From Rhizophagus irregularis (lineage: Eukaryota), in assembly GCF_026210795.1 (NCBI RefSeq), contig NC_089434.1:2480001-2544000 (forward strand): DNA of 64,000 nucleotides. Direction: 5' to 3'. Shown here piece by piece: positions 6,119-41,207 of this stretch. How positions within the stretch are numbered: the first letter of the stretch is position 1; each line of letters starts with the position of its first letter. Both the position numbers and the translations under genes were made by a program. Below the pieces are notes generated by a model. That model was given only the letters and a program-made list of their open reading frames with translations, was not told the DNA's origin and made no database searches.

Positions 6119-6184
6119 TCCGGGAGGTGTCAGGTGGGTTTACACTTATAATATAAAAAATATAAATTTGCAAGTACAAAATGC

Positions 6185-6613
6185 TTACTCCTGTTGAGTC
6201 CATTCATTCCACTCCCAGTCCAGTCTCCAAGGATTGCCTCCCCATCTTTGTTCACTTAATGCATACTCTATAATTTGCCTCTCTTGGGGGTCCACGACCA
6301 TCCCATTCTTAAGCATTTTCTCCATAATATAAAGCTGATTCTCGGTAAGGCGGTCCATCCATCTTTTATAGAAGTCGTGTACATCTTCAAACATTATCCA
6401 GTCAATATTCCCTTTTACATACTGATTTCCGAGAGCTCAGATTTCCCAGTACATATTCCCGATTGTAGTGGCATAATTTTTCCACCTCTTATATGCCTTT
6501 TGACGAACCTCTCGCTATCACACGCTATCTACTTTACTCGCTGCAATAAGGTCAGTATCCAGGATCTTTGTGACAATGCGTTCGACTATTTCTACTGGTA
6601 ACCGGTCCAACAT
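6185..6613 (-). pseudogene. F-box-like protein
   Basis: Reads MLDRLPVEIVERIVTKILDTDLIAASKVDSV**REV (F-box pattern) in frame with ORF 6185-6394. Three in-frame stops. Confidence 0.65.
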
Positions 6614-6773
6614 AATGTTATGTTACTTACACTATAGCTATCTTCAATTACTGTATACTTATTACACACGGATAAAAAATATAGACTAAATTCGTACAAG
6701 ACCGCAGGACCACAGGAGCTGCTTATGCAAGAAGTTCTGTTAAGGTATTCTCAGCCTCGTTTTTAGTAATAGC

Positions 6774-6962
6774 TCACTTTGGGGGATTAGTTGATGAGTC
6801 CTTAGTCGCATTATAATACAATTTGAAGAGGACCTCAAGCTTATCTAGGAGAGCTTGTTTATTCTTGTATGATTCGCGGATTTTTGCTATCTTAGCAGTA
6901 TATGCCGCATTATCTGGGAAGAGTTTTCTGGCCACGAACTTCACATATGATACAGTATTCAT
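6774..6962 (-). CDS. Small hypothetical protein of the polB-helicase element
   Basis: 62-aa ORF, co-oriented with its neighbours and bounded by the AAAAAATA(T/A)A junction motif. Confidence 0.5.
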   Translation of the reverse strand: MNTVSYVKFVARKLFPDNAAYTAKIAKIRESYKNKQALLDKLEVLFKLYYNATKDSSTNPPK

Positions 6963-6995
6963 TCGAATGAGAAAAAATAAATATGAACCTCGGGT

Positions 6996-7793
6996 TTACA
7001 CTTGGGATACTGCAAGACAGTAGAAGCGTCGCTCAGCCTTTTGTATCAATAGAGAGACTGGTCTATATAACCGAAAGATAGCAACTTTCTGGATAATCCT
7101 AGCCACTTTATTGTTCCTTCTTTCTATGTATCTCCTAAAGGCTTTTTGGATCGTTTCAGCATGATGAGTATAATAGTCGAATTTAAAATGCTTTGGGCAA
7201 CTATATAAATGTAGTCGTACTACTTGATCCATGGAAGCGTCGTCTCCCCATCTGCGATCAATAAAAGATTTACAGTAGGTACAGTATTACCTATTTAGTA
7301 GTCGTGATTAAGGTTGCTTGTCTAAACCTCTTCAAAATCCTACGATTAGTTTCGTCAAAATTTTACTATAGATTTATTATAGTTTCGGCAGAGTTTCGGC
7401 AGTTTCGGCATTTATAATAAGTTTTGGCAGTTTCGCCTTTCTCCAAAGTTTCGCCAGTTTTTTAATATAACTTTAATATAGTTTCGGCAGAATTTCACTT
7501 TTCGGCGAAACGCCATTTTGCCTAAACCCCTAGGTTTCAGCAAGCAACCTTAGTCGTGATACTATTCTCCTAATATGCACAATATAAGCATATATATCTT
7601 GACGAGACTTTGGATAAGGTGGCCGCTTATGAAAACCTATTCTACTATAAGTCTCATAATATTGCATAGCATTCTGAATACGCCTAGTCCACGTGTGGAA
7701 ACTTTCGTGGTCTTGTCTACCTAATCCATCTAAGTTTTGCATTTGGGTATCTCGTAAGATTACATGTTCTATAGGTTTATTCAATTATGCCAT
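6996..7793 (-). pseudogene. Protein with CxxC..HxxxC and IQ-like motifs, split by a hAT MITE
   Basis: Removing 7309-7560 joins ORFs 7530-7784 and 6996-7232 in frame (IVSRLLNR*YCTYCK...HLYSC). Contains AETIQKAFRRY and ARIIQK. Confidence 0.6.
7309..7552. mobile_element. 244-bp hAT MITE (TIR family of 17334-21766)
   Basis: TIR TAAGGTTGCTTG and perfect 8-bp TSD GTCGTGAT. Confidence 0.95.
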
Positions 7794-7835
7794 CACGGTA
7801 TGTCAGTAAAAAATATACCTACCGGTCCTTAGCAA

Positions 7836-8318
7836 TCATGTCCAGATAACCTTGTTCCCATTTTTCACATGGCAGTATCCCGTGATTTCAAACTTGAAAG
7901 TCTTTAGAGTCGTATCTGCATTTTCTGGATAAGTGAAAAGCGCGGGGTTATCTGGCTGCTTTTCTAAAATAAATCCATCTGTATGGATACGTCGTACTTT
8001 ATCCTTGTATGGTTGAATTGCCTCAGATGTGATTTTGCGACCACGTGCTAATAAGAATGGGGCGATCCTGGGATACTCACCTTTGAAGGGATTACCCGGG
8101 TTTGTAAACTGGAATCGCCACTGGTCAGATCCTACTGGTATGATAGAGTCAAGTGTATGGCCCTCTGGAAATGTAAATGGGTCTGTTTGATCTGTGGTAA
8201 GGGTCTTGTAATTACGCTTCCTCTGGCATAATGCTTCCCATAATGTGTTGAGAATTCGCTTTGCCACACGGCCAGCTACGCTACCCTGGTTTTTAATTTT
8301 AAAAAAGAAGTGTACATA
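7836..8318 (-). pseudogene. Family-B DNA polymerase-like gene, C-terminal part
   Basis: KRILNTLWE (motif B-like) and RIHTDG (motif C-like). Joins 36165 in frame (TVIFGEYVHFFFKIK). Confidence 0.75.
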
Positions 8319-9572
8319 CAGAACCCCGGATATCTCCAAAACAGGTCATAAGTCACACTTTCGGGCAAACATGGCATAGCAGCCTTTATCTTTATTAATT
8401 ATTTATCAAACTTTACAAAATTACATATAAGAAAAAAAAATAAAATAAAAACTAACTAAAAACAAAGCTATATAGTCTCCTAGAAAGAAATTAAAATTAA
8501 AAGAAAGTTCAAAAGAAAATTCGCTAATACTAAAACTTCCTAGATCTCACCCCTTGATATATTCCAACCAAAGTAGAAGCAACTATGCTAACAAAATAAC
8601 GAATGACGCGCCTACTGTTAAAATCGACACTCCATCCTGCAAAAGCGGTTATTAAGTAGCACCGTTAGATGACCTATAAAACCCGAAATGTGATTAAACC
8701 AAGATAATCCATATCGCATCGAGTTTTTTAACCAATCGGTTCCGGAATCACGTGAATCAACATGGGTCGGAGGTGGTAAAGACGAGTAAGGTAAATAAGA
8801 AGATTTGGGCAAACCTTTAGGCCTTGAAGACTGTTTAAGTTTTGAAGAAATGTGCATCGTATGTTCCCATAATCCTTTATCATACGAACGCGGATTCCAA
8901 ATTCGTTCACAGAATTTGTTGATAAAATTGTTATGTATGGCGGCAACCACCACTGGTCGAATGACAACATATCAGAGAAAATTCAGGTACCCGATTCTTC
9001 ACTAATTCTTCACAGATATATATATTATACAATCCCGATACTTATTCCCGATTGGGCTCAGGTTCTTGTTGCATTTCTGGATACAACCGGGCATAAATAC
9101 TTCATAAGTATTGGATTTCTATTGGTGAAGAATCGGGTTTCTGTTATTTTACAAATAAACGCCCAATATTTACCAAATTAATAACTGAATCTTTTGAAGT
9201 TTTAATAAACTATAAGGTGCAAATCGGATAAATATTATGTTAATATCGGATTTCTGATATTTTACTTATATTTATATAATATTTAAGTATTTATTTGGGT
9301 TATCATAAAGTATCGTTAAACGATACAATACACGCCGGGCAGTAATTGAAATCACGATATTTCAAATTGTTTTAATCAATTTATTACTATTCGTTGCAAT
9401 ATATTATATAGCAATATACTAATCAATTTTACAGTAATACATTTGCTTGCTATATTTAATCGTTGTTATATAGAAATAAACTACAAATCATTCTTGCGTA
9501 ATAAAAATATAAACTACAAATTATTATTAATATACGTGCTCTTTTAAATCTAACATTGCATTAATGCATTAA

Positions 9573-11086
9573 TTAAACCTGTTCATCAAGTTCGTTAGGT
9601 TCATCATTAATATTATCGATATTATCGATCTCATCTTGTGGTTGTACGTCGGATCCGTACGACTGTGATATCGACCAATCAGGGGCACCTTCAGGCGGTT
9701 TTGACTCGTCGATCCACGTTTTATCATCATACCAACGATGTCGTGAAAGTTTTACATGACTTATTTTCTCACCAACTCGGTCAGCCAAGCGAAGTAATTT
9801 ACGTCCCTATAAAAATGAAAAAGAGATAATAAGCAAATGTATACAATAACTATACAATTGTTTTATTTGATACTTACACGACGTGACCTCCAGGGCTTGT
9901 CATAAACATGAAGAACATGTTTATCCGTTTCAATTTTATTCTTAGGACGAACATGATCTTCGATTTCTTTTTTGGTGAGCTCTTCATCAGTTTCAGAAAC
10001 TTCATCACTGTGGAATCCTCCTTCATTAAATATGGTTTCACAGTCTTCCTTGAATTCTTCCCAAGATAATGATGACGGTTGAAATTCTTTAAGCGAGGCA
10101 TCATTAATATTGAACATATGCTCGATGCCTTTCTGACGTCGCTCTTTTTTCTATTGCAATCAGATATTAGTGATTAGGATAGAAAGGAACAAGATCAAGG
10201 ATTTTAATTTCATATTTCGGATGTCTTCAGTACTTACATCTTTTCTTCGAGAATTCGTTCCTTTTCTCTTCTTTTCAAATCTAGTCTTATCCGGATCAAG
10301 GCTAACCATCCAGCTTTCTCTACGATGGCGGTGTAGATTCTGTAAGACCCATTTCAATTCTATATCTTTGTATTGAAACCTTCCGGTCAAGACTCTAGCG
10401 ATCTCCTTCATGATGTGTTTTGAAACGTGTGGTGCAATTTCTACCCATTTTTTGGTATGATCCAATTGCAATGAATCATCGAGACCGCTAAGTATCTGCA
10501 CGACCTCATCCTTAATTTTATAAAAAAATATCGATTAAAAAATTTTGCTGAATAACCAATAGTTACTTGATACTCACATGGAACAACTTATATTGATCTT
10601 CGTCCATATCTTCAAGCAAAACCCGAGCACGTCGACGATATCCAGTTTCTGGTTCTGGCGTGAGTGATGTATTTTGTCTACTCCTTGGAACTGGTGTTGT
10701 CTGAGGGGTTGATGGCCATTCAGCTTGTAGGTCGTTCCTTGTTTGAGATTTCTTGAGGGTCCGAACTTCTTCCGTAAGTGCAGTGATAGCTCTGCTTAGG
10801 GCTTCGATATCTGTAAATTGAAATCATGACATTATATTCAAAATATGTAAAATAAAAAACATAATTATTATATTATAACCATACCATCATTCCTATTATA
10901 TCTTGTAGTTGAACACCCTCCTTGTTGACTTGGTGAACGACTATCTGAATAATTAGTCCTATTATGTCTTGTAGTCGAACGTCCTCTTTGTTGACTTGGT
11001 GAACGACTATCTGAATAATTAGAATAAGAAGAACGTCTAGACTTGTTCCTTCTTGAACGATAACGGTGACGACGATGTGGTGACAT
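9573..11086 (-). CDS. CACTA accessory gene, multi-exon, RS-rich N-terminus (exon bounds approximate)
   Basis: Co-oriented ORF segments separated by short AT-rich introns. Starts MSPHRRHRYRSRR and is divergent from the transposase. Confidence 0.6.
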
Positions 11087-14037
11087 TGAGTTTGTTTGAT
11101 GATGGTTGTAAGAGGTTAAATTTGTTGTAGATAAGCGTCTTAAGCTTATTTTCTTAATTTTGAAAGGTCTTCTTCCACGCATTTTTACCAAAATTTGTTA
11201 AAGGATAAAAAAAAAACAATACAATAAGGTAAAAGACGTTCTTTTATACCTTTATTTATTTCCACAATTAAAATATTATGATTATTAATAATATTTTTTT
11301 TTCCTATAATTAGATTAAATGTAATGATTACGATTTTTTTTAATGATTTAGATCAAAGTATAATGATATGGCAGAGAAAAAAAAAATCAGTTCGTGGGAA
11401 GAAAGGGGTCTTTATATATATTTTTTTTTTGTCATATGAGGACCGATAGGTCTGTCGAAAGTAACGAAATAGTCTATTAAATAAGCTTTTTTTGATTGAA
11501 TTTTTTTTTTCCTTTTTTTTCATGCCGATAAGTCTATTGAAAATAACGAAATAGTCTATTGAAGTATAAGCTTTTTTTTGATTCAAATAAAGGAACTTAT
11601 ATTGATTTAAATACAATAAATACAATAAATTGATAGTAACCTAATATGGTCAACAATGTCAATTATCAATCATACTAATATATCCGTTCATCGAAGAACC
11701 GGAAATTCATTTTTAATAAAATTTTTTTATATTATTATTTACAATGACGAGAAAATACCGAAGAACAAAAGCTGTCTTTGTAAAGAAATCCTATAATTTT
11801 AAACAGAAAACATCAAATAAAGTTCCGTGTCATTGCAATAAATGTAAAGGTAACATGGTTGATCCACGTACAAAAAATAGTCATAGTTTAAAAAGGGATA
11901 TTAGACCAAGAGGAGTTATTGAAGAAATTATAGATTTAAATCAAGTTTCATCTGATGACCTAAACCAAGATACATCGGTAGACCTCTTGAATGATCCAAT
12001 GGAAATAGAATCACATAATTCAGATGATGGTCATCATGAACCTATTGTTGATGAGGAAAATTATTCGTTTCTTCCCAAAAAATCGAAATCATCAAAAGCC
12101 AAATCGAAAGATAAACGAAAACATATCGGTAGTGGAAATTCCAAGAATGTATCATACCCTATTGTTGTTATTGAACAAAGTATTTCAGATGATGATACTA
12201 GTGATGCTGATGATGAAGAAAACGATCAAGTTGATAATGACTTTGATCCTATCGAAGAAATACCAAATGAATCTTCATCCGGCTGGTTTGACGCACCGGA
12301 AAATACATACGGTGATGATCCAGAAGCCTCCTTCATTGATTTTACTGAAGACTTTCATTGGATTGTTTTATGGATCTTATTATATCAAGAGAGATATAAG
12401 TTATCCGATGTCACTACCGATTCTTTAGTCAAATTTTTTAGATATCTTTTGGTTCTTTTGGATGCAAACACGTACAATTCTTTTCCTACATCTTTGTATA
12501 TGGCACGTAAAAAACTTGGCGTCTGTGCTCATATTGTCAAATTCGCATCGTGTGAAAAGTGTTGCAAATTGTATAATGTAACAGAAGTATCAACTAACGA
12601 CCCTTACCAAGTTCCAGCCACAATTCATTGTACCTATGTAGATTTTCCGGATCATCCGATGGCAAATCAAAGAAAAAAGTGCAATGCTACACTTGCTAAG
12701 AAAGTTCCGGTTACTAACGGAACAATCTATCGACCTTCTTTAACGTTCCCTACTGTTAGTTTAAAACACCAATTACAATTAATGTATAATCGAAAAGGAT
12801 TTGAGAAATTATGTAGAAAATGGGCGGACCGTAACGATTCTCAATTTTTGAATGATATTTATGACGGAAAGATCTGGAAAACCTTTCAGGATCATCGTCA
12901 AAATATACCATTTTTCCGGAAAGATGTCTCAGACCGCCACTTAGGCATCATGTTAAATATCGACTGGTTCCAACCATTCGATAATTCAACTTATAGTATA
13001 GGAGCTCTATATGGTGTAATATGTAACCTGCCTCGAAATGAAAGATTCAAGCCATCAAATATTTTGACAATGGCTTTAATTCCGGGGCCAAATGAGCCTA
13101 GTTTACATCAACTAAACCATTATATAGCTCCCATCATCGATCAATTAATCGAGTTATGGAATGGGATTGAACTATCGAAAACATACGAAAGCTCTACCGG
13201 AAAATCTATTCGAGCCGCAGTAATATGCTGCTCATGTGATATTCCAGCCGCGAGAAAACTCTGCGGTCATATCTCTGCGCGAGTGGCTTGTCATAGATGC
13301 TTAAAAAAGGCTCAATATGATGATCGAAATCAACCGAATTTTGGCGGATTTGATGATATTGATGAATGGTTTGTCGAAAGAGATATCAACCAGGTTCGAA
13401 GGGATGCGCGAGAATGGTTGAATTGCAATACTAAAGATGCTAGAAATAGTCACGTCCATAATACTTTAGTACGGTGGTCAGAAATGTATCGACTTCCGTA
13501 CTTTGATTCAGTGCGATTTCTCACAGTGGATCCAATGCATTGTTTGTTCTTGGGTATTGCTAAGTGGATCGTGACCAGACTGTGGATCGAGGAGGGCCGA
13601 TTGACACAAAAAGATTTAGAAACAATGCAAAAAAGGGCAAATGCAATAAAAGTTCCAGCAGATATCGGTAGAATTCCCTACAAAATTGCTACAGGTGAAG
13701 GCTTTTCAAGGTTCACCGCTGATCAATGGAAGACTTTTATCTTAATTTATGCCACTTCCATAACATGGGATCTGCTTCGAAGAATCGGATAAATTGATAC
13801 TCGCCAATTTTGTCCGTGCATGCAATATTCTTGTATGCAGATCTATAACAACGAATGGGTTAGAAGAAGCTCATAAAAATCTTCTAGAAGTGGCAAAGCT
13901 CATTGAAGAAAATTACGGCGCAGAAAAAATTACGCCGAATTTACATTTATGCTTACATATTTGCCATTGTGCGTTAGACTATGGACCATTATACGCGTTC
14001 TGGTGTTTCAGTTACGAACGCATGAACGGTCTATTAG

Positions 14038-15324
14038 TAGGGTTGGTAAAATAACCGTTAGTTATGAATTTGGTTAATTAACCGGTTAATTAACGGTTAG
14101 TTAACGGTTAATTAACCCATAAATAACCTGTATATATAATTTTAAGGAAGTTAAAATAAATTTATAATTTATTAAATATTATAAAATTTTAATATATTTT
14201 ATTTATTCTTCATCATCTAAATTAATAACATTTGCTTCAAATCCAAATATACTATCATTATCAGAACTATTATTATTATCATCTTCTTTATTTTCATTAT
14301 CAGAACTATTATTACTATCTTCTTCATTTTCATTAAAATTACTACCCATTTAGCTGTATGAGATTCTTCACCAGAATAAATAGCATCAAAGAATAATGGT
14401 TTTGGAGTACAAATAACAAAATTTTGAACTGATTCTCGATTAATATTAGACCAACCATCTGAAACCATTGTAAGAGATTTAGCTTGTAAAATTTGTTCAT
14501 TACATTCAGCTTTAACTTCATCAAAAACATCATCAAGTAATTCATCAGCAAGTTTTCTTCGATTAGGTAATTTGAATGCTGGACGTAATTGTTGAAAAAA
14601 CTGAATAACATAATTATTTTCAAGAAAAGAAAAAGGAACTCCAGCAGCAAATAATGCTTGAGCTAGTAAAATTTCAAGAGTATCTTGTTCTTCTTCACTC
14701 ATACGATCAACAAAATTCTCAATTGTTGTATTTTTTAAATGCTTTTTTGATGTTTTTACTGTAGGAATAAAAGTAGAAGTAGTAGCATCAGAAGTTTCTA
14801 ATAGTTCAGGAATTTGTTGTTTCTTTGTTTTTGCACTTTCTGGAGCTCTAGGACAACTATCATTAAGATGAACTTGCATTCTTTTAGCTGTACCTTGTTC
14901 AAAAACTTTAGAACAATAATTACAACGTACAGAAGGATGTGTTTTTTTCTTAGACCTACTACTTTCTTCATTACTTTCTGCTTCAGTAATTATTGTCCAA
15001 TGTTTCCAAACAGTTCCCTTTTTTTTTACCATGATAATGAACAATAAATTTGCAAAAAAAAAGTGTTTTTTTAAAAAAAATTTATCTTAAAAAAAAGATC
15101 ATGCAATATGTAGATCATAGATTTAATCAATATTTATATTAATTAATATTTAATTGTGTAACAAAATAATGGATTATCATTTAATCACATGATTTAAATT
15201 CTGCATTTTGATTGGCTAATTATAAATAACGGTTAATTAACCATTTTAAATCAATCATAACTAACAAAATTAACGGTTAATTAACCATGGTTAATTAACC
15301 GTGGTTAATTAACCCCCATCCCTA
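14038..15324 (-). mobile_element. Internally deleted hAT element
   Basis: Termini TAGGGTTGG / CCATCCCTA, perfect 8-bp TSD TCTATTAG and GGTTAATTAACC subterminal palindromes. Confidence 0.92.
14217..15044 (-). pseudogene. Truncated hAT transposase (BED finger plus first catalytic Asp)
   Basis: VWKHW...CNYC...HLNDSC and MVSDGWS, then jumps to the 3' end. Confidence 0.85.
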
Positions 15325-17841
15325 TCTATTAGGTAATTCCAGATTTCCGAACTTATCAATATAATTAAATCAATTTATTAAATAGTCTATATTTATAGGA
15401 TCGTATCATAGCAGTAATAGAAGAATCGAACCAGAATTATTAAAAACCATTCAATTCAACTCTCTTCTTGATCAGTTTTCTTCATGCGCCCAAGACCATC
15501 AACATTTATCGACTTGTATCACACTAATTACACCGAAAGAAACTACCGGCAGTCTTGTAATTCATGATGAAATTAATGGAATAGATTACCGGGAATTTTT
15601 ATCAATGTCTAGAAACGTGGAAGAAATGGCCGGAACAGGTTCGGAACCTTTTCCAGGTACTTTTCTTAATCCTAAAAGGATAGACACCAACCTTTCAAAA
15701 GAAGTATTAGATTTGTTGGTTGAATATTACCGCAATGCCTATGGAAAAGATTTCGCAGCACTATCAGATATCCATGCTGCTCCTTCTGCTATACCGGTAT
15801 TACCAAAAGTGAACACTTATGGACGACTAAAAATTGGATCCGAAGTTTTTGGGTCAATGTATTCTAAAAGGCACGTCACATCGGCCAAAATATTATCCCA
15901 ATTTCTCCATGATAATACTAAAGATACTTATCCCGGTATTGTTCAATTTTATTTTGAACATATTATACATTTTCCGGAAGGTTCTGTAAATCATTCCCTA
16001 GCATTTGTAAAGTGGTACCTTCCGGCAGAAAATCACAAGACTAGATTTCATTGCACAATTAATGGCGATGAAAATTTGTGCAATATAGAACTATGGAAAA
16101 AAGAATTTTATGATCTTAGCAGGGATTGTATTATCCCTGTACACGTAGTATACTGGGTCGGTTTGTTGAAGGTTCTTTTTCAATAGGACGAAAAGAAACC
16201 CGGAAATATGTGTCAGTAATACCGATCAATAGAAAGTTTCATATTTAAAATTTATAATAATACTGTAATATCAATCATGTTTTATATTATGAATATTATA
16301 AATATACAAATAAATAAATATATAATAATTATTATTAAACCTTTAAATTTCTCACCGTCTAATATCAATGTTCTATCAGTATTATTATCTGGATTATGCG
16401 ATGTTTTACCGACGCTTATTTATAAATTAATTACGATCACGACAGATCGGGTGTTTATTTATTAGTCATCGGGAAATCCGGAAGGTAATCAATTTGTTAC
16501 TTATTATCAGCTGATCAAATTTGATATACGTTTAGAATCTATCGGCTTCTTATATAATAGAATCAATAGGCCTATCGGGATACTGATTATTTAATGATAA
16601 AAAAAATAAGAGCCGGTTAAGAACCGAAACCTGATTGGTCCCGATTCTTAACTGGCTCTTAATACACCGATTCTTCATCATTTGACCAGTGCACATTCAT
16701 AGCAGTGAGGTGAGGAATACCTAAGTTTACAAAAACTTCCAGAAAGGCGTTAGGCAAACAACCACGGACGAGACTATAAGAAGACCAGTTGTTAGATGAA
16801 AAAGTCCAGCAAGGGAGGGAAGTAACTCTATTAATTGAAGAAGAGTAATCGCAATTGGCATTATCACCCGCTTCTTTAATTTTTTGGGTAAAGTGGTGGA
16901 GATATAACGTTAAAATTTGATGTAATTTAACGCGGTGCTTTTTGCATAAAAATAAATGCATAAAATCTTCTAAGTGGTCTTCACAAGAACGACAGGTTAG
17001 AATCTCTACGTATAAATCAGGTCGTGTCCTTTTCAGTGATTCCAAAGTAGGCAAGTCCTCCAGGAAAAGTTGAAATTTCAACGTGTGATGTCTAGAGACA
17101 TTTTCCTTAGTAAAGGAATTATCAAATTTGGGTTGGAACATTAACGTATGCCAGGTAAGAGCCCAGTCAACCACGTATTGGGATGGATCTGTTAAAAGAG
17201 AAATAAAACGGAAGCGAGAAAGAGCTAAAAGGTCTTTCATATACAACATCTGATGATATTGTTTAAACAAATGTCTTGGGTTGGTTTCACAGACAATGTC
17301 ATCATAAGACATAATATAATCATGAACCGCGGCTAAGGTTACTTGCCGAAACCTGTTTGGCCTAATGCCGAAAGGTGAAACCTCTTATATAGTGCCGAAA
17401 CGCCGAAACGCCGAAACTGCAAAACCTGTCAAAATTGCGAAACTGCCAAAACATGCCGAAACCTCTATAATAGGTTTCTCCGTAGTTTCGGCATAGTTGA
17501 TCATAAGATTTGCATATAGTTACGCCAAGTTACACCAATTAATAATATAATTTAGATGATCAAATAATCTACAGATAAAAGATTAAACTTCAATATTTTA
17601 CCGTCGTCTTAGTTCTTTTAAGCTTTATCTAGTGTTAGAATTTTCATTTCTAACTCCCATATTAATATTATGATATTACACGTTTTTACAGTTTTTTTTT
17701 AAGGGGCTTATATTCATTAAAGGAAAATGCGTAACATGCATTTAATAAACCCAATTCTGTCATCTCCTTTAACACTGAACTAAAGTTTCTTTTACTTTCT
17801 TCCGTTTTCTTAATAATAATATTAATAATAAACTGTTTCAA

Positions 17842-20151: not shown

Positions 20152-20772
20152 TAATAATGAGAAATAATTACAATAGTTAATCCAATGAGAATTAATTCTA
20201 ATATCATGTGATTTAAATAATGATACTATTTAGGAAATAAATGATGTAATTATGCAGGGCAAAATATTCGCGATCAAAGTCCAGTTAACATATAATTATG
20301 CAGGCAATGCAGGCAATTGTAATTTTATATTATATTTTAAAACATTGCAATTTAATTAAGGAATAAGGATAAGCATATTATATTTTAAAAATAGTGCAAT
20401 TTAATTAAGGAATAAGGATAAGCATATTATATTAGAATCAATAAGTTTTAAGGACTTCGTTAATTAAATTTATTATATTAGATCAATAAATTTTAAGAAC
20501 TGCGTTACAAAAAAAAATTTAGAACTGCGTTAATTAAATTTATTACATTAGAATCAAAACTGTGTTTATTTTGTTACAAATACTTTAATTATGTAGAATG
20601 TTATTATGTTCATCAGTTCATGTTTTAAACATTATAACGAATTTTAAAATTATTATAAATATTATGAAATTTGAATTTTTTTTTCGCAATTCAAAACCAA
20701 ATTGTATTTTAATTTTCAAATTGTATTTAATTTTCAAATTTCAAGTTACGAAAAAAATCATAAAAATAAAAA

Positions 20773-28384: not shown

Positions 28385-28628
28385 TAAGGTTGCTTGTCTA
28401 AACCTCTTCAAAAACCTACGATTAGTTTCGTCAAAATTTTACTATAGATTTATTATAGTTTCGGCAGAGTTTCAGCAGTTTCGGCATTTATAATAAGTTT
28501 TAGCAGTTTCGCCTTTCTCCAAAGTTTCGCCAGTTTTTTAATATAACTTTAATATAGTTTCGGCAGAATTTCGCTTTTCGGCGAAACGCCATCTTGCCTA
28601 AACCCCTAGGTTTCGGCAAGCAACCTTA
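28385..28628. mobile_element. 244-bp hAT MITE, second copy
   Basis: Near-identical to 7309-7552, with TSD ATTTCTGC. Confidence 0.95.
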
Positions 28629-28937
28629 ATTTCTGCGGTAATCTGCGATTTTGCAGATTTCCGCTTTTATAACTACTATATTACTAACTGAAGAAAACTC
28701 TGTACTAATACTAACTGACGGAAATCATGAGATAAATTGCTATTTTTTACAGTTTGTTTAATTGCTTTAATTTACTAGCAACCCGTAAGATATCATACTA
28801 TTAAAGACTTCCTCTTTTTGTCGATCTGAAAGGCTTTTCATAAAACTAGCGAAAAAAGCTAAAGTGGCGTTTTAGATATACTGTATGGATGATGAAACGT
28901 CATTTTTCTTTATTTAATACAATTTTATTTTGAAGAT

Positions 28938-31900: not shown

Positions 31901-32099
31901 GTGTATTCCATAACTGAACATCATGTTCTGGCATAACCGCTGTTCTTGATGGTTGTCGCGAGAATCTTTGAACGTGTTCACTTGGTTCACTTGGTCGAGA
32001 AGTTGTTGTTCTTCCATGGTGTTTGGCATTAGCGTGCTGTCTCAAACCGCTGGGAGTTGAAAAATATCTCTTGCAAATTTGACATTTATATCTGACCAT
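28938..32099 (-). pseudogene. Plavaka transposase with N-terminal C2H2 finger, multi-exon
   Basis: CQIC..H..KH, WW..E..LP..IILYSDGT..HPVFLTLGN, ADMLE, PDRMHHIDLGLF and KLHSW. Confidence 0.85.
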
Positions 32100-32359
32100 T
32101 TTTCTTTAGAAATCAATGCGAGTTTAGAAATTAACGCAGGAAAATTTTTTTGATAGTTTCACGCGAGAAATATTTATGAAGATTTACTTTTGGTATATTT
32201 TTTTTTTACTGATTATCAAGCGAATATAAATTTTACTGATAATTGATTATTTTTGTTTACTGAAAGATAATTAATTTATTTACTGATTAGTAATTAATTT
32301 TTTTCATTTACTGATATTTTTAATTCGGGAGTAACTGATTTTTTTACCAATTCATTAAC

Positions 32360-32680
32360 AATTAATTTATTTAATTTACTGATCCTTAAATATATTTTAA
32401 TTCAGGAGTAACTGATTTTTTAAAAAACTTCCGGCAAAACTTTTAACCTTACACAATTTTTCAATTATTTATAATGTAAGAATTTTTTCATTTTTTTTCG
32501 GTTGGCTGAATCGTCGCAATAATTAATTTATTTAATTTACTGATCCTTAAATATATTTTAATTCAGGAGTAACTGATTTTTTAAAAAAATTCCGGCAAAA
32601 CTTTTAACCTTACACAATTTTTCAATTATTTATAATGTAAGAATTTTTTCATTTTTTTTCGGTTGGCTGAATTGTCGCAT
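32360..32680. repeat. Tandem duplication, 161-bp unit, between the divergent Plavaka genes
   Basis: 32360-32520 is repeated almost exactly from 32521. Confidence 0.9.
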
Positions 32681-32801
32681 ATTTTTACATTTATATGAAT
32701 CTTAACAATTTTTTTTCAATTTTTCGAATTAATTGTTGTTTGAATTTTTCTCCGCAATATTTTTCCTATACAAATTTTACGAATTTAGAATTTAAGTGAT
32801 T

Positions 32802-34611
32802 ATGGCGTCTAAAAGGTCAAAAAATGCAAAAAACTCAAAAAAAAGAAAGCAAGCACTTGACGTTCCTGAAGGACAAAGAAGAAAACAAGCACTTGACGTT
32901 CCTGAAGGACAGAATGAAAGCTAACAAAATATATTTGCACAAATGTTATCAGGTAGTTAGTCGTCAAGATGCTGATATTTTGCAATTTAACATTATAATT
33001 AACTTTTGCTGAACGCCAACAGTAGAATCTTCAGAAATTCCTAAAGATCAGCGCACAGATCGTGAAAAATCACCTATTGGTCCTTTCGTACTCGTTACTC
33101 TATTTGATGTAGATCGTGGAAGATCTTTAGTTAAATCTGTTTCTTTTACTCCAGCAAATCGTGAGAAATCCTCAACAAATCGCGAGAATTCTTTAGTCAG
33201 GACTGCGCATACTGAAACTTCCGTTTCAACTACATTGACGCCATCTGTAACTCCTATGAGTTATGAAAGAACTTCGAGGACGCCAACTCCCATACTTAGT
33301 CCAATGCAAATTGACCTTGATAAAGAAATTGATTATTATAACGTCGATGACGATGATAACGAAGAACATAATGATAACCGTGATAAAAGTGATACCCGTG
33401 AGCCTTTACCAAAACCACATAATGTAGAGGGTGAACGTTACCTAACTGTGAAAGAGTTTAATTATGCCATGAATGCATTAGATGGAAAGGTAAACGCCAT
33501 CTACAAACTTTGTCGATATATTGGAGATCAGCAACAAAAAAGTATTCAAGATACGCAAAATGTTGCAAAAAGTGATGTATTAAGCGATGATTTCTGGAAT
33601 GTAAGTTAATTAAAAATTATCAACTTGATTTTAATCTAAAGATACTTATAATAACCAAATATCTTCACAGCGCGTTTATAAAAATGTAGCTAAAGAACTT
33701 ATTCCAACGTCTTTATATCCTTCGGATATAGAATACCGAAAGGCTTTAGAAACATATTTATCTAAACATGCAGAACATTACATTAAAAATATTGGGCAAA
33801 ACGCGTGGATTTCTTTATTTTCAGATAAGTTGTTGGCAGAGGTATGTGAAATATTAATAATCGTTAAAAAAAGGTATTTTTTTATATTTATTTAACTTTT
33901 TTTTAGATAAAAACTAAATGCAGAAGCAGGAGAAATGATTTTGCCGCAAGTATCAGGAGTGCCATGTTTTCCGTCTTTGGAGAACAGCGATTGGAACGCA
34001 TAGATAACAATTCTCCTTCTATGAAGATCGCTGAATGGAAACAGAATCAAAAAACGCGTAATGCGTTTTATGAACTTTTCAAAAATCACGATATTCTAAT
34101 GAAAATTGGCCATTCAGTTTTCAAACAGTATAGGGATAAAGAACTTCCTTTTACGCATTGTGCGTATATTTTATCAATATGTGACATCTTGTTAAATTCC
34201 AATAGCTATAGTATTAAGTGTAATGACAAGTCTGTTACGAAAAGAGTCGAATTTTTTCTAGTAAATAATTTTCGCAAATTTTCGCAGTTCTTTTAATCTT
34301 TTAATATTTTACAGATATTAATCTATAATTAATTAACAGCAAGCGTTTAGAAATAAAACGCAAATAACTCCTCGAATAATGGAGGAATTAGCTGAAAAAG
34401 AAGCGAAAGAAGTTAGTCAAAGAACTGATCAATACGAGTCAGCAGTCGCAGAAGAGAGCAGCGATTCAGTTGAAAATGAAAATTATGATGATTTTGTAAG
34501 TTAAAGTTATTATTTATGTTCGATTATACACTTAATTGAATTATTTTACTAAGCTAAATCATCATTTTTTTTTAGATTAATAATCTAGATTCGCAATTTC
34601 CTCAGGATTAA
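32802..34611 (+). CDS. Plavaka accessory gene, multi-exon, unknown function (bounds approximate, possibly pseudogene)
   Basis: ORF segments 33235-33609 and 33964-34296 with GT-AG introns, inside the TIRs. Confidence 0.55.
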
Positions 34612-34980
34612 TTGTATTTCTTTGAAATACTAATTTTTTTATAATTCGTAATTTTATATTTTTTAATTGTATTTCTTTGAAATACTTTAATTTTTTTTAT
34701 ATCATTTTTTTTATATTCTTTAATCGTATTTCTTTGAAATACTTTAATTTTTTTATATCATTTTTTTTTTATATTCTTTAATTGTATTTCTTTGAAATAC
34801 TTTAATTTTTATATCATTTTTTTTATATTCTTTAATTGTATTTCTTTGAAATACTTTAATTTTTATATCATTTTTTTTATATTCTTTAATCATATTTCTT
34901 TGAAATACTAATTTTTTTATAATTCGTAATTTTATATTTTTTAATTGTATTTCTTTGAAATACTTTAATTTTTTTATACT
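34608..34980. repeat. AT-rich minisatellite, about 55-58 bp unit
   Basis: Repeated TATTTCTTTGAAATACT core. Confidence 0.85.
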
Positions 34981-36164
34981 GTAATTCGTATTTTTACGCG
35001 AAATTTTACGTTGCTTTTTTTTGGTAGAAATAAAGAATTGATTATGATTAATTAATATAAATGGACTATAAATTATCATATATTAATTGTATTTTATATT
35101 TCGATTTATTTCAAAGGTTTTTTATTTAAAAATCCGCGCAGAACATTGCTATTTATAAAATCTGCGCAGTTTTTTATTAGAATTTTCCTCTAATGTTTTG
35201 CGCCAGGGTATAAGATCTGCGCAGATATAATTTCTGAAAATCTGCGCAGATCTGCTCCCCAAAAAATTTCCCGATGAAGTTTCCAAAAGGAGATTATTGA
35301 CAGCGTCAATCATAGCCCGATTGGTAGGATATTTTTTAACAAATTCAGGGGAAGTATTAGGCGCCGCAGCAGCCTGATAATCATGTCTAAGAATGGAAAT
35401 AGTGGGCGTGTCAAGGAGAAGAGGAGAAGTATCATTGGTATCCATAATATCCTTATTGGGAGACGCGTTTAAGGGGAAGTTTCTTTGTCTATTGGGGCAT
35501 GTATGGACGTGTCGGTACCAGACGTGACAGAACCATACGCAGAAGGCGCAGTAGGATCGTTAGGAGGAGGAGACGAAAAGTTGTCAGCATTATTTTGTTG
35601 AGGAGGAGTAGTATTACTACCTCCAGCGTCAGCCGCTGAGTCGGCGACGTAGTCTTCTTCCATAGGATTTTCTGGGAGCGTACGGGTACGTTTGGAAGGG
35701 TTGTTTTTATTGTTTGTTTGTTCATTATCAGAGTTCGAAACGTCAGAGCCGAGTCTTTATTTTTGTTTCGTTTGTCTTGACGCTTGGCAGGTCCCCCGTT
35801 AGGGTTATTGCCAGCTTTTTTGTTACCTTTGAGAGACATTTTAGTAGTAAAATAAGAGATGTGTTAGTATGAAGAATAAAAATTTCTTAAGTCACACTTT
35901 CGGCAGATTGGCTTATTTTTCGGGGGGGTTTCAAAAATCGTTTTTTGTAAATATCTCGGCATCCAGTGGTCCAATTTTGATGAACTTTTTTTTATTTTGT
36001 AGAGCTAAATGAGGGCTACAAAATAAAAAAAAGTTCATTAAAATTGAATTACTGGATGCTGAGATATTTACAAAAAACGATTTTTTGAGTTTCAGCAAAA
36101 AGGGGTGTTTTTGGCCAAAAGTCCATTATGACCTTTATATTAGATATCCGGGGTCCTGTACATA

Positions 36165-37534
36165 CTCACCAAATATTACAGTTCCAGGGATTCTCGCTTC
36201 TCTATCATATATCAATGCATTTGGCTTTCCATCCTGTATTAACTGTATATCGAGACCAAGTTTTTTTGCTCATTGTAAGTCGATGAATGTATAGACTCTC
36301 CTCTTATTCTGTCAGAAGAGAATGTTATTACCACTTACCTTAGCACGGAATAATCCATACAAGGCATAACCTCTGTGATCAATAAAGTCTGAAAGTGTCT
36401 AGAATTTGCCCTGTTTGATTGGAAAGTTTGCATTTGATTGTTGAATACTCAGATATAAACTTGTTGCATCGTACTGTCTTCCATAGCCCTTCTACTCGTT
36501 ATCTGCCCAGATTAATCCTCCCATCATTGCATCACTTAACCACTCCGCTTCTATCAGGTCAAGAGGATCATTGGCTGAAATCCCTACACTTAATCGTTCA
36601 AATAACCAGAGAGCCGTTCTTTTGTAAGACCAGTTATAGTATGATAAGTCTATCCCTAGACCAAACTTCTTTGTCACCTGTAAGAAAACATTCCGCTCCT
36701 CGTGGATTCTCTGATATACTTCTTCAAGAGTTTCATATATTTCCGTTTTATGGTTTTTCTCAACAGGAATAAAGGAACGCTTGGAATTCTTACCCTTTTG
36801 AAACTGTCCAATCACGCAAGACTTAACCGTTTTGCCATTGTATATTGTGACTACATTTTTTACTCCATCTTCATGATACACAATGGGCAGATTACACTTC
36901 CTATCTAATTTACTGGGGTGGAGTCTTCCGGGATTTAACGCGAGGGAGTAGTGACCCTCAGACAGGATGAGAGTCGCACATCTATCAGACTTACTCTTAG
37001 AGATTCGGGTAATATCCCCACGATGTTAAGTGCGAGACTTCCTGCGAGTTGTTCGACCCTGTCCATGCATGAAACTGGGATGGGAGCATTACGATTGAGA
37101 CCTAATGCCTTTTTGATATACTCAGGCTTTTTAATTGACTTTGGCATTTTAGAGAATGTGCCGTAGATATATTTTAGGCATTCATACAGGCAATCATTTA
37201 GCTCCCCATTGTATCCTCCTGCGGCCGGTGGAGCATCTCTTATATAAATTATAAATCTTTTGAAATAATTAGGATCTGCGTCGTCTGGTAGTTGTGCTTC
37301 ATCATAATGGTCTAACAGTGAAAAGAGACTTACCGGTTCATTTCCTGATGTCCACCCACTGGGTTTCCAGTTTTCATAGGGAAGTAAAATCTGGAATTTA
37401 TGTGTTAGATACCGGGATTGGAGTCGCTGTCCAAGTCTTGCTATTGCTCCTCTAGAAAATCTTGCGCCTGAATACTGTAATTTTTTGATATCCGGTCTTG
37501 TAGGTAAAGCACAGACATTCTCTGAATAAACCAT
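36165..37534 (-). pseudogene. Family-B DNA polymerase-like gene, N-terminal and central part
   Basis: AMMGGLIW...YDATSLY(L)S...FP, a motif A (DxxSLYP)-like sequence. Stops and a frameshift. Confidence 0.75.
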
Positions 37535-37617
37535 TTGATGTATTTATGAATTGTGTTCAGTTGTAATATAGGTTTTTTATACAAAAAATATAAGATAACT
37601 AAGAAGTGCTTATCTTA

Positions 37618-40201
37618 TTAAAAGGAGTCAATCTTGCTGCATACACGATCAAGATCCTCTTCATTCCAGTCGTCGACGATTCCATTGGCAGTTTCCCACT
37701 GGCGTTCCATCTTGGTCTTTGGACGCTCCTCTGGGATTTCTCGTGCCTTACCCTTATCTGTTCTTAAAGTTTCATAACCAGAGGGGGTGGGGATAATTTT
37801 GGCATCACGATTCTCCTTGTATATTCTTATTATATCTGCGAGTTCTTTACGGCTAGGTGTTTTAGGTAAGTTCCCATTATATTTGATCCAGTCCTTGAAA
37901 CGATTTACTACTTCCCTAAGGTAATACTGGTACTTGTCCTCAACACGTGTTATGGGACATTCCTCTATTTCAAACGCGAGTATATCCCAATCATATTCGT
38001 CTGATATGTCTTAAAACTTGGCCCATAATTCCTTACCTGTATTATAGAGATCATTGAAGACCTAGTTCTTTGAATTCTTGACCCATAGTTTACGATCCCA
38101 TCAGTGTCTTTCTTGCCAAGCCCAGTGTGCTTGAGTACCTTCCTTTGGTTCAGGATCCCAGTCGATTTCTGGTTCTGTGTCAGGTTCTGGAATAAATTGC
38201 TCAGGAGCCAGTTTTACTATTACAGGTTCTGTAGAAGATTTGGAATCCGTGAGGGATTCGGATTTTGCAGAAGATTCTGCAGGTGACTTGGGTTGTTGCT
38301 CAAGAACTGGGTCTGCGGTTGTAGAATCTGAGTCTGATAACAAGTCGTCTAAGACGTCATAGTCATCTGGCTTGGGGGCAGACGGTTTTTTAGGAACTAG
38401 ATCCTCAGCAGACAGCTCCTGTTCTTGGTTGGGTTTCTTGTCAGATAGATAACAGTCTGAGAAGCTATCTATAGGTTCATCAGTGTCTAACTCATTAGTA
38501 TTTTCATCAGCATCCGGTTGTTCTTCCCTTAACTCTTGTAGACGTTCTTTTAAGTGATCAGGCTTGGGTGGAAGCGGTGGAAGAGCCTTGCGAATTACAG
38601 GTACGGGTTTTTCCTTAACAGGTGCAGGTTTTTCCTTAGTGGGTTTCTCGGCAACTAGCTTTACTTTCTCTTGGTCTACTTGCGATTTACTAGCTGAATT
38701 ATATATTTTTACTAAGAATTTTTCTGAAGCTTTGAGGTCGGATGTTAGCTTCTTAGGAGTTTCTGTATCGATTTCTTCTATGTCTATCTCGTCTATTTCA
38801 TGTATCCAGTTTTTGCTGAGGAACTTCTTGTAGAGGTCCTCCCTGGATATGCTGTAGACTCGGGTTGGTTTCTTATCTTTACGAACTAATTTGCTATTTA
38901 TAGCCAACTCATTCGATAGGATTCTAGAAGCGTTTATTTTTAATAGGGGTGAAATGCAATGAGTTTCGCAATATGAAGTATATACCTTATAAAATTCTTG
39001 AACAGGTAGGTAGGTCATATAATTTTTCACTACGAGGTATGTGTCCTTTATAAATTGGAATAGCGGTGGAAGAGTCGAGATGATATGTTCGTATTTGGAT
39101 GTTATCATAGGTGGCAGATTCCCATTGAAGTCTGGGTAAGCATCCGCGATGGCTCTCAAGTAAGCATAGAATGCCTCACTGGCGCCTAGGTATTTCATAG
39201 CGTCACTGAGTTTCTTAAAGTAGTTAGGGTCTCCTTTGCAGGATGGTGATACATCCAAGAACACTGTGCGCCTATCGTCATTCTCCACTCTGAGAGCATT
39301 TTCGTTGGTAAGGACGATGATGGACATAAAGTTCTTGTAATGTGTTGGCGTCTTGTATTTTTCATGGATTTTCATTATATCACTCGTTACTTTATCTTTC
39401 AAAGAGCGATATAGAGAATTCCACTGGCTTTTTTCCATGGGCATTTCCTCGAGAAGAAGAAGAACTTTACCCTATAATTGCCCATTGAAACTTCCAAGAA
39501 TCGTCTGAGGATTGCTAGTCTTATAAACGAGTTGAGTACCTAGGACGCTGCGCTGAATGAAATCTGTTATAATACCTTTGCCCCAACCGACCTTGTCCAG
39601 ATTTTAGGTAGAGAATCGAGTACATCTTCCTTCCAGCAGATACATCAGCTAACCACTTAAATATATACTCAGTGAGATTCCAATCACCTGAACACCAGAT
39701 ATCCTGAATGTAAGAGAAGATAAATTTAACCGCGAGGTGAATTGTAGACTCAAAGGTGGATATCGGACGCAAGACGTGAAGAAATCCCGAGAAGATATTT
39801 AGATAGAGCTGGCCGGTTAAGGATCTGAAGATTCGCTGTTTATGGGGATCACAGGTTGCAATACATACATCAGTATTCTCAACCATAAACCACTTGTAGA
39901 TGTTGAACTCGGTCTTTTGAGAGGGTCCTTGTTTAGGTTGTATGTAGAATGCCTTCGTGATTAAACGGATAAGTTTACCAATATTTTTGTCAATAACGTA
40001 TTTCAAACTTTTACTATCTGGATCCCACCAGAAAACCCCATGAGGATCTGCACAGGGAATGAAATAACTGCAAAGATACCTCTTGGCTTGATCGAGATCA
40101 CTCATACTTTTTGCAGCGATAATAAGCCGTTTAAGCTCATCGATACTGAAGGCTTTCTTTTGTTCACTGAACTTTAGGATAACTTGAGCTTGAGTGGTCA
40201 T
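37618..40201 (-). pseudogene. SF3 helicase (D5/NrS-1-like) with long acidic/Pro-rich C-terminus
   Basis: Walker A SGQGWGKG (after removing a 4-nt insertion), LGSFNG, Walker B LLLLEE, motif C IVLTN and DDRR finger. Confidence 0.85.
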
Positions 40202-40400
40202 TTTTTCGTTTTGTCAAATCGGGATCTAATTTATAGTTACCTAATCTTCAATTGCCGAATATATTTTTTCCAAAGATCTGCACTCCTACCCGGTTATCCT
40301 CCTGCGATTCTACAGACCTTCTAAGGGTTATTGACCTACCTGTTAACTCGGTTTGCTATCTCACTGCCTCCAATAAGAAAATGAATGGAATGCTGAAAGA

Positions 40401-40625
40401 GTAACAGATCGTAACAAATGTAACAGATCTGGGAGGGTAAAAATAAAACTTTTTCTGAGGGGATGTCCTCTCCTATCTTTCTGAAACATCTGTTACATCT
40501 GTTACATCTGTTACTCCCTTCTGATTCTATCGTATTTTCCTCTCTTTTCCCTTATTTTATCTGTTTTTTAGTATATTTTTAGTAACAGATGTAGTAACAG
40601 ATAGTAACGGATCTTGGGTAACCCC
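40401..40625. promoter_or_regulatory. Iteron-like repeat cluster, putative replication origin
   Basis: GTAACAGAT-type 9-mers: 3 forward (40401, 40411, 40420), 3 reverse (40488, 40497, 40506), 3 forward (40582, 40594, 40604). Confidence 0.65.
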
Positions 40626-41207
40626 GCCCCACAGAGGGGGGATATAGGTACTGTGAGGCCGTGAGGCCGAGGTGAGTGGAGCCTGTGACACATACTACCA
40701 GCCCGACAACTATACCTATTGGATTCAGTTTCACATATAGTAGTAATAAACCAAATGATAACTATTGAATAATTACTTAATTTATTTAAATTAATAAATC
40801 CTTTCAATCCGAATAGCCTAAATTTTTATATAGTTATCAATCGGGTATATGCCCTATTGATTACTAATTTTTGGCTAACCTATTAGCCTAATAGTTACCA
40901 ATAGGGTATATGCCCGATTTTTTAGCTTTCGACCTGTGTTCATAAGTCATATAAATTATATGATATTATATGTTAATACTGAAAAACTCTATATAAGTTG
41001 CAATTAAAATAGGTAAAATCAAAAAACATTATTTCAATCAAAAAAAAAATATACATTATTAATAAATATAATAATTTTAATTATAAACAAAAAATTTCAT
41101 ATTGAAATGGAATTTATTGATGTTGTTAAAATTTTAAATTTGAATTATACATGCTGCCCAAATTATTTTGGAATGCCATAATTATAATTTGCACTGGTCA
41201 AAAACCA

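What the first reader, a model, noticed from the sequence alone, without database searches (positions are those of the whole stretch)
6119..40938. Hidden self-replication module: SF3 helicase + compact polB + origin + F-box/IQ genes, without capsid or integrase
Seen: removing the nested 27.8 kb insert (TSD TACATA) rejoins 37534-36165 and 8318-7836 into one frame with YDATSLY, KRILNTLW and HTDG motifs. It lies downstream of a helicase and upstream of three small genes, all intronless, co-oriented and tightly packed, unlike the intron-rich neighbours. Established: these are family-B polymerase and SF3 motifs, and Polintons/Mavericks normally also carry an integrase, packaging ATPase and capsid proteins. 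Inference: a minimal virus/plasmid-like or self-synthesizing element that does not fit Polintons. This copy is dead, and its left end may be deleted.
Basis: partly seen in the sequence, partly recalled or inferred. Interest (0 to 1): 0.9.

Follow-up and report, generated by a model that had tools for sequence, protein, structure and literature searches.

The report
Broken fungal Polinton with Gag-bearing relatives
This is a dead, cut-short copy of a virus-derived jumping DNA element of a mycorrhizal fungus; longer relatives carry the integrase that is missing here and, where a DNA-virus shell gene would be expected, a gene predicted to fold like a retrovirus shell protein, which may explain why no capsid was ever found for these elements.

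Summary
A 27,840-bp transposon splits a 617-codon family-B polymerase gene that lies behind an SF3 helicase and an iteron-like repeat block. The 'minimal module' reading does not hold. The host is a Rhizophagus-like fungus. The polymerase is mavirus-type (terminal protein, vOTU, palm, exonuclease remnant; best structural hit mavirus pPolB, E 1e-27). The copy is cut off by a hAT at 6118. In R. irregularis assemblies, polymerases 68-86% identical to this one have an rve-chromodomain integrase and/or a Gag-protease gene within 15 accession numbers, and more distant soil relatives carry an A32 ATPase. The family is very likely the known capsid-less Polinton of Glomus/Rhizophagus (pMVRE group 1, about 14 kb with TIRs). 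What the main texts read here do not describe: an 11-kb relative has no jelly-roll capsid or cysteine protease, but has a two-domain retroelement capsid fold followed, across a poly-A -1 frame junction, by an aspartic-protease-like gene, with no reverse transcriptase. A 2021 figure legend already labels Gag/retropepsin in some PolB element. Particle formation is untested and the protease motif is non-canonical.

The parts
40401..40611 (-). Iteron-like block: three groups of three TCTGTTAC-type repeats (forward, reverse, forward), 9-12 bp period, groups 87-97 bp apart; candidate origin or helicase-binding site
   Evidence: The same layout with another motif (CTTGCCA) lies upstream of the helicase in L014 and L012.
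40612..40690 (-). Probable helicase-side terminal region; family-shared sequence ends near 40690
   Evidence: Depth drop in X1 and X2. No matching inverted repeat near 6119.
37618..40201 (-). D5-like SF3 helicase pseudogene (DUF5906, winged-helix in relatives, long acidic tail); frameshift near 39589, 4 internal stops
36159..37534 (-). 5' part of mavirus-type pPolB pseudogene: terminal-protein-like domain, vOTU (NDCL/GHY), exonuclease remnant, motif A, TPR1-like region; frameshift near 37017, 4 stops
8319..36158 (.). Inserted TIR transposon (Transposase_21 at 11720-13792) with nested hAT, LINE and Plavaka-like pieces; not part of the element
   Evidence: variable flanks at 36157 in other contigs
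7836..8318 (-). 3' part of pPolB: motif B (KRILNTLW), TPR2-like region, motif C (HTDG), short tail
6999..7742 (-). Small gene 1, relative of L020:984-1478 (73-83% aa), weak IQ-like hit; split by a MITE
7309..7552 (.). 244-bp MITE with TAAGGTTGCTTG ends and 8-bp target duplication; second copy at 28385-28628
6726..6953 (-). Small gene 2, 3' half only (92% to L001 aa 81-156); homologues follow pPolB in L001, L002, L005, L006, L010, L015, L017, L018, L024
6188..6613 (-). F-box-like small gene with internal stops (78% to L001 gene)
6119..6187 (-). Last element-derived bases before the break; L001 matches to 6119 and runs on for 148 bp
3130..6118 (+). hAT transposon (CAGTGTTG ends) abutting the element; its 8-bp flanks match at only 3 of 8, consistent with a deletion that removed the rest of the element

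Best explanation
The window holds a dead, transposon-riddled copy of a multicopy mavirus-related element of a Rhizophagus-like fungus, cut off at a hAT after its F-box-like gene; it is very likely the left half of a ~14-kb Polinton-type element whose longer relatives encode an rve-chromodomain integrase and a protein predicted to fold as a retroelement capsid, followed by an aspartic-protease-like frame. Inferred cycle of intact copies: the element is released as linear DNA with terminal inverted repeats. The pPolB primes synthesis with its own N-terminal domain, which the vOTU protease would cut off. The SF3 helicase unwinds the template in place of the lost exonuclease-linked functions and likely binds the iteron block through its winged helix. 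The integrase inserts new copies. Gag would be made in excess and Gag-protease at a lower level by a -1 slip on the poly-A run, so Gag likely builds a shell or scaffold around the replicating or integrating DNA in place of the lost jelly-roll capsid. Shown here: gene content, order, motif conservation, predicted folds, and linkage (two contigs plus accession neighbourhoods). Taken from the literature: protein priming and vOTU cleavage. Inferred and untested: origin function, frameshifting, particle formation, packaging.
For: Host and copy number: 84 homologues, the best from R. irregularis at 86-89%. Polymerase type: model matches mavirus pPolB first (617 aa, E 1.4e-27); residues 106-207 match OTU domains (Z 6.8, rmsd 3.4, 92 aligned; the first 15 rows are all OTU); vOTU Cys and His and motif A Asp are invariant in 127 of 127 distant representatives; about 155 aa lie between vOTU His and motif A, with one invariant acid. 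Truncation. Longer relatives: L006 has polB, F-box, Pox_A32, coiled coil, Gag-like, Asp protease, rve-chromo and DUF5679; L014 has helicase, polB, A32, coiled coil and Gag-like. A32 follows polB in 6 of 38 metagenome loci, most of the rest being too short. In R. irregularis, 8 of 19 listed CAB44-series polB accessions have a Gag or integrase accession within 15 numbers on the same contig, and 11 of 19 listed Gag/integrase accessions have a polB; also GET50944/48/49. Seven of these polBs were measured at 68-86% to the window's. One (P0436) is joined by its gene model to the window's small gene 2. Size: L014 start plus L006 gives 13.9 kb; 56 of 100 published R. clarus elements are 13-15 kb and 2 are under 9 kb. 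Gag: Retrotrans_gag hit in 22 of 35 homologues (best E 3.6e-5); model (pLDDT 73) matches the PEG10 CA C-domain (Z 9.4, rmsd 4.0, 88 aligned) and spans both HIV CA domains; 16 of 16 stand-alone homologues end in KK[KR], against 1 of 260 control proteins; in L006 and L014 the downstream frame is -1 and opens just before an A10G run. The L006 integrase is 34-40% identical to those of IMG/VR elements with the same polymerase type.
Against: 11 of 19 listed polBs had no listed partner (the partner list is incomplete). An ATPase was not shown in the window's own subfamily, and Wei et al. list Pox_A32 with pPolB only 9 times in group 1. Only 2 of 38 metagenome loci reach the Gag position; L006 itself has a stop within Gag and lacks the helicase, and the L014 ATPase is split. 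The protease motif is DTCA in 16 of 16 gene models and DSAS in L006, not D[ST]G; no zinc knuckle is present. No strong RNA structure follows the A-run (about -7 kcal/mol). The Gag Foldseek E-values are weak (0.018 at best). The polymerase half of the pPolB model has low confidence.
Confidence: 0.82

Rival explanations
1. One reading: a genuine ~6.5-kb minimal or non-autonomous subfamily (helicase, pPolB, small genes) that spreads without its own integrase.
For: No integrase, ATPase, Gag or protease anywhere in the 64-kb window. Many other copies diverge from the window at 6155-6171. 2 of 100 published R. clarus elements are under 9 kb. 11 of 19 listed polBs have no listed partner.
Against: The break sits exactly at a hAT end without a target duplication, and L001 continues past it. 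There is no TIR near 6119. Polymerases up to 86% identical are linked to Gag or integrase.
Confidence: 0.08
2. The element is a capsid-less transposon or plasmid, as Wei et al. suggest, and the Gag-protease cassette is captured cargo that forms no particle for the element (for example a scaffold, decoy or restriction factor, or a decaying passenger).
For: Non-canonical protease motif and no zinc knuckle; an insertion of about 100 aa in the CA N-domain; no Gag relative among IMG/VR viral contigs (151 pattern hits, 0 confirmed); A32 ATPases are known with jelly-roll capsids (PMC4028283).
Against: The cassette has the same position and the same poly-A junction in lineages whose Gags are 36-60% identical. 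Retropepsin-type domains co-occur with pPolB 56+29+6 times in group 1 and are never listed with MCP. This rival shares the anatomy of the best explanation and differs only on what Gag does.
Confidence: 0.45
3. The element is an endogenous virophage or Polinton-like virus with an unrecognised jelly-roll capsid, or part of a giant endogenous virus.
For: The polymerase, integrase and helicase relatives are virophage-like IMG/VR contigs. Capsids of other 'capsid-less' Polintons were found later (PMC7805220). L006 is not shown to be complete at its 3' end.
Against: In L006 every ORF over 250 aa is accounted for (polB, ATPase, coiled coil, Gag, protease, integrase), and the summed length already equals the published element size. 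The window's flanks are transposons, with no NCLDV genes among the ORFs scanned.
Confidence: 0.07

Closest known systems
pMVRE group 1, fungal lineage (Wei et al. 2026, PMC13215967; seen: parts 1-3 of 6 of the text, passages, parts of supplementary tables 1-5; figures and mmc1.docx not seen)
   Same: Glomeromycota hosts, mavirus-type pPolB, DUF5906 helicase, rve, chromodomain, DUF5679, F-box, retropepsin in the domain table, ~14 kb. Very likely the same family (inferred; sequences not compared directly).
   Different: The paper calls them likely plasmids without structural proteins; 'gag', 'retropepsin', 'aspartic' and 'frameshift' occur 0 times in its main text. The window copy is truncated and has no TIR pair.
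Polinton of Glomus intraradices / R. irregularis (Kapitonov and Jurka 2006; not read, cited through passages of PMC7805220 and PMC11296320)
   Same: Same host group; described as having no detectable MCP; A32 genes reported from Glomus and Rhizophagus (passage); Mavericks recently expanded in R. irregularis (passage).
   Different: Identity with the Repbase entry was not tested. A Gag-type capsid fold is not mentioned in the passages read.
Cafeteriavirus-dependent mavirus (Krupovic et al. 2024, PMC11161782; passages)
   Same: TP-vOTU-PALM pPolB of 617 aa with exonuclease remnant and a separate S3H. An rve integrase is shared and an ATPase occurs in relatives.
   Different: Mavirus has a jelly-roll MCP, a penton and a Ulp1 protease; the fungal relatives show Gag-like and aspartic-protease-like genes instead. 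Helper-virus dependence is untested.
MELD-related element with 'Matrix/Capsid/NC/Pro' labels (Starrett et al. 2021, PMC8502044; section 3.4 and legends, figure not seen)
   Same: The Fig. 5 legend lists similarity to retroviral Gag and retropepsin and a D5-like S3H among PolB elements; Rhizophagus PolBs are mentioned in the Fig. 3 legend.
   Different: The host of that element is not visible in the text, and section 3.4 does not discuss it. It may be this family, which would mean the Gag similarity was already noticed.
Ty3/gypsy-derived Gag proteins (PEG10, Arc) and retroviral gag-pro
   Same: Two-domain CA fold (predicted); a protease in the -1 frame behind an A-rich run.
   Different: No reverse transcriptase or RNase H, no zinc knuckle, non-canonical protease motif; the integrase is a separate, opposite-strand, virophage-like gene.

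Membership tests
Mavirus-type pPolB elements (pMVRE group 1) | pPolB with TP-vOTU-PALM order | tested here: met
   (TP only by position and weak fold hits, Z about 4.4)
Mavirus-type pPolB elements (pMVRE group 1) | Exonuclease reduced to a remnant | tested here: met
   142-175 aa between vOTU His and motif A, one invariant acid in 127 representatives
Mavirus-type pPolB elements (pMVRE group 1) | Separate SF3 helicase gene (DUF5906) | tested here: met
Mavirus-type pPolB elements (pMVRE group 1) | Placement in the pPolB clade with mavirus | tested here: inconclusive
   No mavirus sequence in hand for a tree; the FastTree shows a 24-row clade of fungal-type polBs (SH 99) among virophage-like relatives; structural top hit is mavirus
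Mavirus-type pPolB elements (pMVRE group 1) | Terminal inverted repeats | tested here: inconclusive
   Only one end is present in the window; no fetched locus holds both ends. TIRs are published for R. clarus and R. irregularis copies.
Canonical Polinton/Maverick | Full-length pPolB with exonuclease | tested here: not met
Canonical Polinton/Maverick | rve integrase | tested here: met
   Absent in this copy; present in L006 and linked in R. irregularis copies
Canonical Polinton/Maverick | A32-like packaging ATPase | tested here: inconclusive
   Present in 6 of 38 metagenome loci; not shown for the window's own subfamily
Canonical Polinton/Maverick | Double jelly-roll MCP and penton | tested here: not met
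   By ORF accounting and Pfam on L006 and L014; caveat: neither contig is complete and only polB and Gag were folded
Canonical Polinton/Maverick | Ulp1/adenain cysteine protease | tested here: not met
   No hit in 27 proteins scanned from L001, L002, L006, L014, L030; an aspartic-protease hit instead
Canonical Polinton/Maverick | Target-site duplication around the element | not testable with these tools
   No complete copy with flanks; no genome held
LTR retrotransposon | Gag with CA fold | tested here: met
   In relatives only
LTR retrotransposon | Reverse transcriptase and RNase H between protease and integrase | tested here: not met
   In L006 the protease gene ends at 9423 and the convergent integrase at 9449
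LTR retrotransposon | D[ST]G protease motif and zinc knuckle | tested here: not met
   DTCA in 16 of 16 gene models, DSAS in L006, no CCHC in 62 homologues
Giant endogenous virus | NCLDV core genes in the flanks | tested here: inconclusive
   None among 27 window ORFs scanned; a few ORFs at 53-63 kb remain unassigned

The most novel reading that the evidence does not exclude
The Glomeromycota Polintons are virophage descendants that swapped their jelly-roll capsid and cysteine protease for a retroelement Gag and aspartic protease, expressed by -1 frameshifting, and package a protein-primed double-stranded DNA genome (possibly with the retained A32 ATPase) into a retroviral-type shell: a DNA virus or virus-like transposon that joins two viral realms, living in the dominant plant symbiont.
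Probability: 0.3. Interest if true: 0.92.

Novelty: new variant of a known kind. Interest (0 to 1): 0.6.

Why it matters
The missing capsid of the Glomus/Rhizophagus Polinton has been noted as open (PMC7805220), and a 2026 survey filed these elements as likely plasmids. A conserved CA-fold gene with a gag-pro-like junction gives a concrete candidate and makes the question testable with one protein and one fungus. If particles form, a retroelement capsid would serve a DNA genome replicated without reverse transcriptase, and a recently expanded element family in arbuscular mycorrhizal fungi would have a possible vehicle between nuclei or strains. The window copy itself is only a decayed fragment.

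Tried and rejected
No genome was held for the window, so no copy census was possible. IMG/VR scans with the R. irregularis polB, the L006 ATPase and the Gag alignment found nothing. A GTDB scan gave 3 short MAG contigs at 29-31%, probably mis-binned virophage-like pieces. Sequence searches of the PDB failed for polB, the ATPase and two putative capsids of IMG/VR relatives, and Pfam did not name those capsids, so their capsid identity is unconfirmed. The Gag profile gave only weak PDB hits (PEG10 E 0.67). The Gag trimer prediction returned no answer (score 0.00). The ESM Atlas gave no result. The IQ-TREE run did not finish and FastTree was used; the 'AMF' label there was assigned by score for metagenomic rows, and P0095 fell outside the clade. 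RNA: no RNA holder was listed; three raw-read runs (24-30% read) gave 133-192 reads, mostly partial and under 95% alike, which says nothing about this copy. A crude integrase motif count (25 of 62) was not used. The idea of a short CAGGT terminal repeat at 6135/40935 was dropped because L001 continues beyond it. Earlier-findings look-ups returned nothing. Literature: 8 searches found no main-text description of Gag replacing the capsid in fungal Polintons; figures, Wei's mmc1.docx, bioRxiv supplements, Repbase and subscription papers could not be seen and may hold one. In one search one of 101 rows was mistyped and dropped.


Full report
Observation. The hexamer TACATA lies at 8313-8318 and 36159-36164 and encloses 27,840 bp with terminal inverted repeats. 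Intact 617-aa proteins from Rhizophagus irregularis align in three consecutive pieces to 37534-37016, 37019-36156 and 8318-7839 at 84-92% identity. The uninterrupted site is present in three metagenome loci and in contigs of run X1. The split gene is real. It also has a frameshift and four stops, and the upstream helicase (DUF5906, E 4e-9) has a frameshift and four internal stops. Against locus L001, 164 of 319 differences are C>T or G>A, which fits decay of a methylated copy (inference).

Host and family size. A protein search gave 84 homologues, mostly R. irregularis, best 86-89%. A profile search of 1.84 billion representatives gave 883 clusters at E<=1e-30; most of the 150 listed are about 600 aa. 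In 127 distant representatives (25-33% identity) the vOTU Cys and His, the motif A Asp and the motif B Gly are invariant, and motif C is almost always HTDG or HTDS. The odd motif and the small size are therefore family traits, not decay.

Polymerase type. The AlphaFold model (pLDDT 63, polymerase half weak) matches OTU proteases at residues 106-207 (Z 6.8, rmsd 3.4, 92 aligned), phi29 polymerase weakly (E 0.003), and mavirus pPolB best among viral structures (617 aa, E 1.4e-27). Only about 155 residues with one invariant acid lie between vOTU and motif A. This is the TP-vOTU-PALM organisation that Krupovic et al. describe for mavirus, where loss of the exonuclease goes with a separate SF3 helicase (passages). 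Seven distinct IMG/VR contigs with this polymerase all carry an rve integrase (four by Pfam, three by BLAST), and four have an A32-like ATPase; their putative capsids were not confirmed here.

The copy is truncated. L001 (88% nt) matches up to 6119 and continues 148 bp further. In the window a hAT end sits at 6118, and its flanks do not form a target duplication. No inverted copy of the helicase-side end exists near 6119. The small genes are a patchwork of an L020-type gene and the 3' half of an L001-type gene. On the helicase side the family-shared sequence ends near 40690.

What longer relatives carry. Of 38 metagenome loci, six reach an A32 ATPase and two reach beyond it. L006 reads polB, three small genes, F-box, A32 ATPase, coiled coil, Gag-like, aspartic protease, rve-chromo integrase, DUF5679. 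L014 reads helicase, polB, small genes, ATPase, coiled coil, Gag-like. For the window's own subfamily I used accession neighbourhoods. Of 19 listed CAB44-series polB accessions, 8 have a Gag or integrase accession within 15 numbers on the same contig, and 11 of 19 listed Gag/integrase accessions have a polB; GET50944, 48 and 49 give polB, Gag-protease, integrase in order. Some look-ups were chosen by matching contig length, one such contig did not show adjacency, and the partner list is incomplete. Seven of the linked polBs were measured at 68-86% to the window's. L014's start plus L006 sum to 13.9 kb, and 56 of 100 published R. clarus elements measure 13-15 kb. An ATPase in this subfamily is not shown.

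The unexpected part. No jelly-roll capsid or cysteine protease gene was found in L006 or L014, and L006 has no unassigned ORF over 250 aa. The Gag-like protein hits Retrotrans_gag weakly in 22 of 35 homologues. Its model (pLDDT 73) matches the PEG10 capsid C-domain (Z 9.4, rmsd 4.0, 88 aligned) and spans both domains of HIV CA, with an insertion of about 100 aa in the N-domain. All 16 stand-alone homologues examined end in KK[KR], against 1 of 260 control proteins. In L006 and L014 this is an A10G run; the next frame is -1 and opens just before the run, and in L014 it has no ATG in the stretch read. This is the layout of a gag-pro frameshift (inference). There is no room for reverse transcriptase, and the integrase is 34-40% identical to virophage-like ones. 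Against a working retro-type particle: the protease motif is DTCA or DSAS, there is no zinc knuckle, no strong RNA structure follows the run, and no Gag relative was found in IMG/VR.

Origin. At 40401-40611 three groups of three TCTGTTAC-type repeats alternate in direction. L014 and L012 show the same layout upstream of their helicase with a different motif. A conserved layout with a changed motif suggests a protein-binding site, plausibly for the helicase's winged helix (Pox_D5 hits in relatives). Origin function is not shown.

Comparison. Wei et al. 2026 report a fungal lineage of pMVRE group 1 without structural proteins, 'likely plasmids', with TIR-bounded copies in Rhizophagus, Gigaspora, Diversispora and Glomus. 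Their group 1 domain table pairs pPolB with rve 109 times, retropepsin-type domains 56, 29 and 6 times, MCP 25 times and Pox_A32 9 times, and lists no MCP-retropepsin pair; their main text does not mention Gag or retropepsin. Bellas and Sommaruga note that the G. intraradices Polinton still has no MCP. A figure legend in Starrett et al. labels Matrix/Capsid/NC/Pro and S3H in some PolB element; the figure could not be seen and may show this family.

Verdict. The element works like mavirus in replication and integration and very likely belongs to pMVRE group 1. It fails canonical Polinton membership on exonuclease, jelly-roll capsid and cysteine protease. The family is known; the Gag-for-capsid reading is at most noted in a legend and untested. 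Interest 0.6; most novel reading probability 0.3.

Noticed in passing
window 41700-49700: A LINE-like element appears as a large inverted duplication (arms 91-100% alike) around the 200-N gap at 46487-46686; it may be an assembly artefact.
   Followed up: no
window 8319-36158: The insert is a stack of nested elements: Transposase_21 (11720-13792), two hATs (14217-15086, 17779-20151), a LINE with endonuclease, RT and RNase H (21745-26184) and Plavaka-like ORFs (29224-32105). Its superfamily is unclear because the target duplication length is ambiguous.
   Followed up: partly
P0006 versus P0063: Near-identical polBs in R. irregularis are preceded by two different D5-like helicase types, which suggests helicase exchange within the family.
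   Followed up: no
L010:2286-2891: A different CA-like ORF (40% to the Gag C-domain, E 2e-8) sits directly behind polB in this locus.
   Followed up: no
window 40830-40924: A 61-bp-spaced direct repeat with a 28-bp inverted repeat lies in lower-copy DNA outside the family-shared end.
   Followed up: partly
L006:5995-7230 and L014:7976-9301: A conserved ~420-aa coiled-coil gene overlaps the Gag start codon by 16-19 nt in both loci; function unknown.
   Followed up: no
L043: A fragment of this polymerase type lies at the end of an IMG/VR contig that also encodes an NCLDV major capsid protein.
   Followed up: no
window 53395-54222 and 61926-63402: Several ORFs with no convincing Pfam hit, probably host exons.
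   Followed up: no
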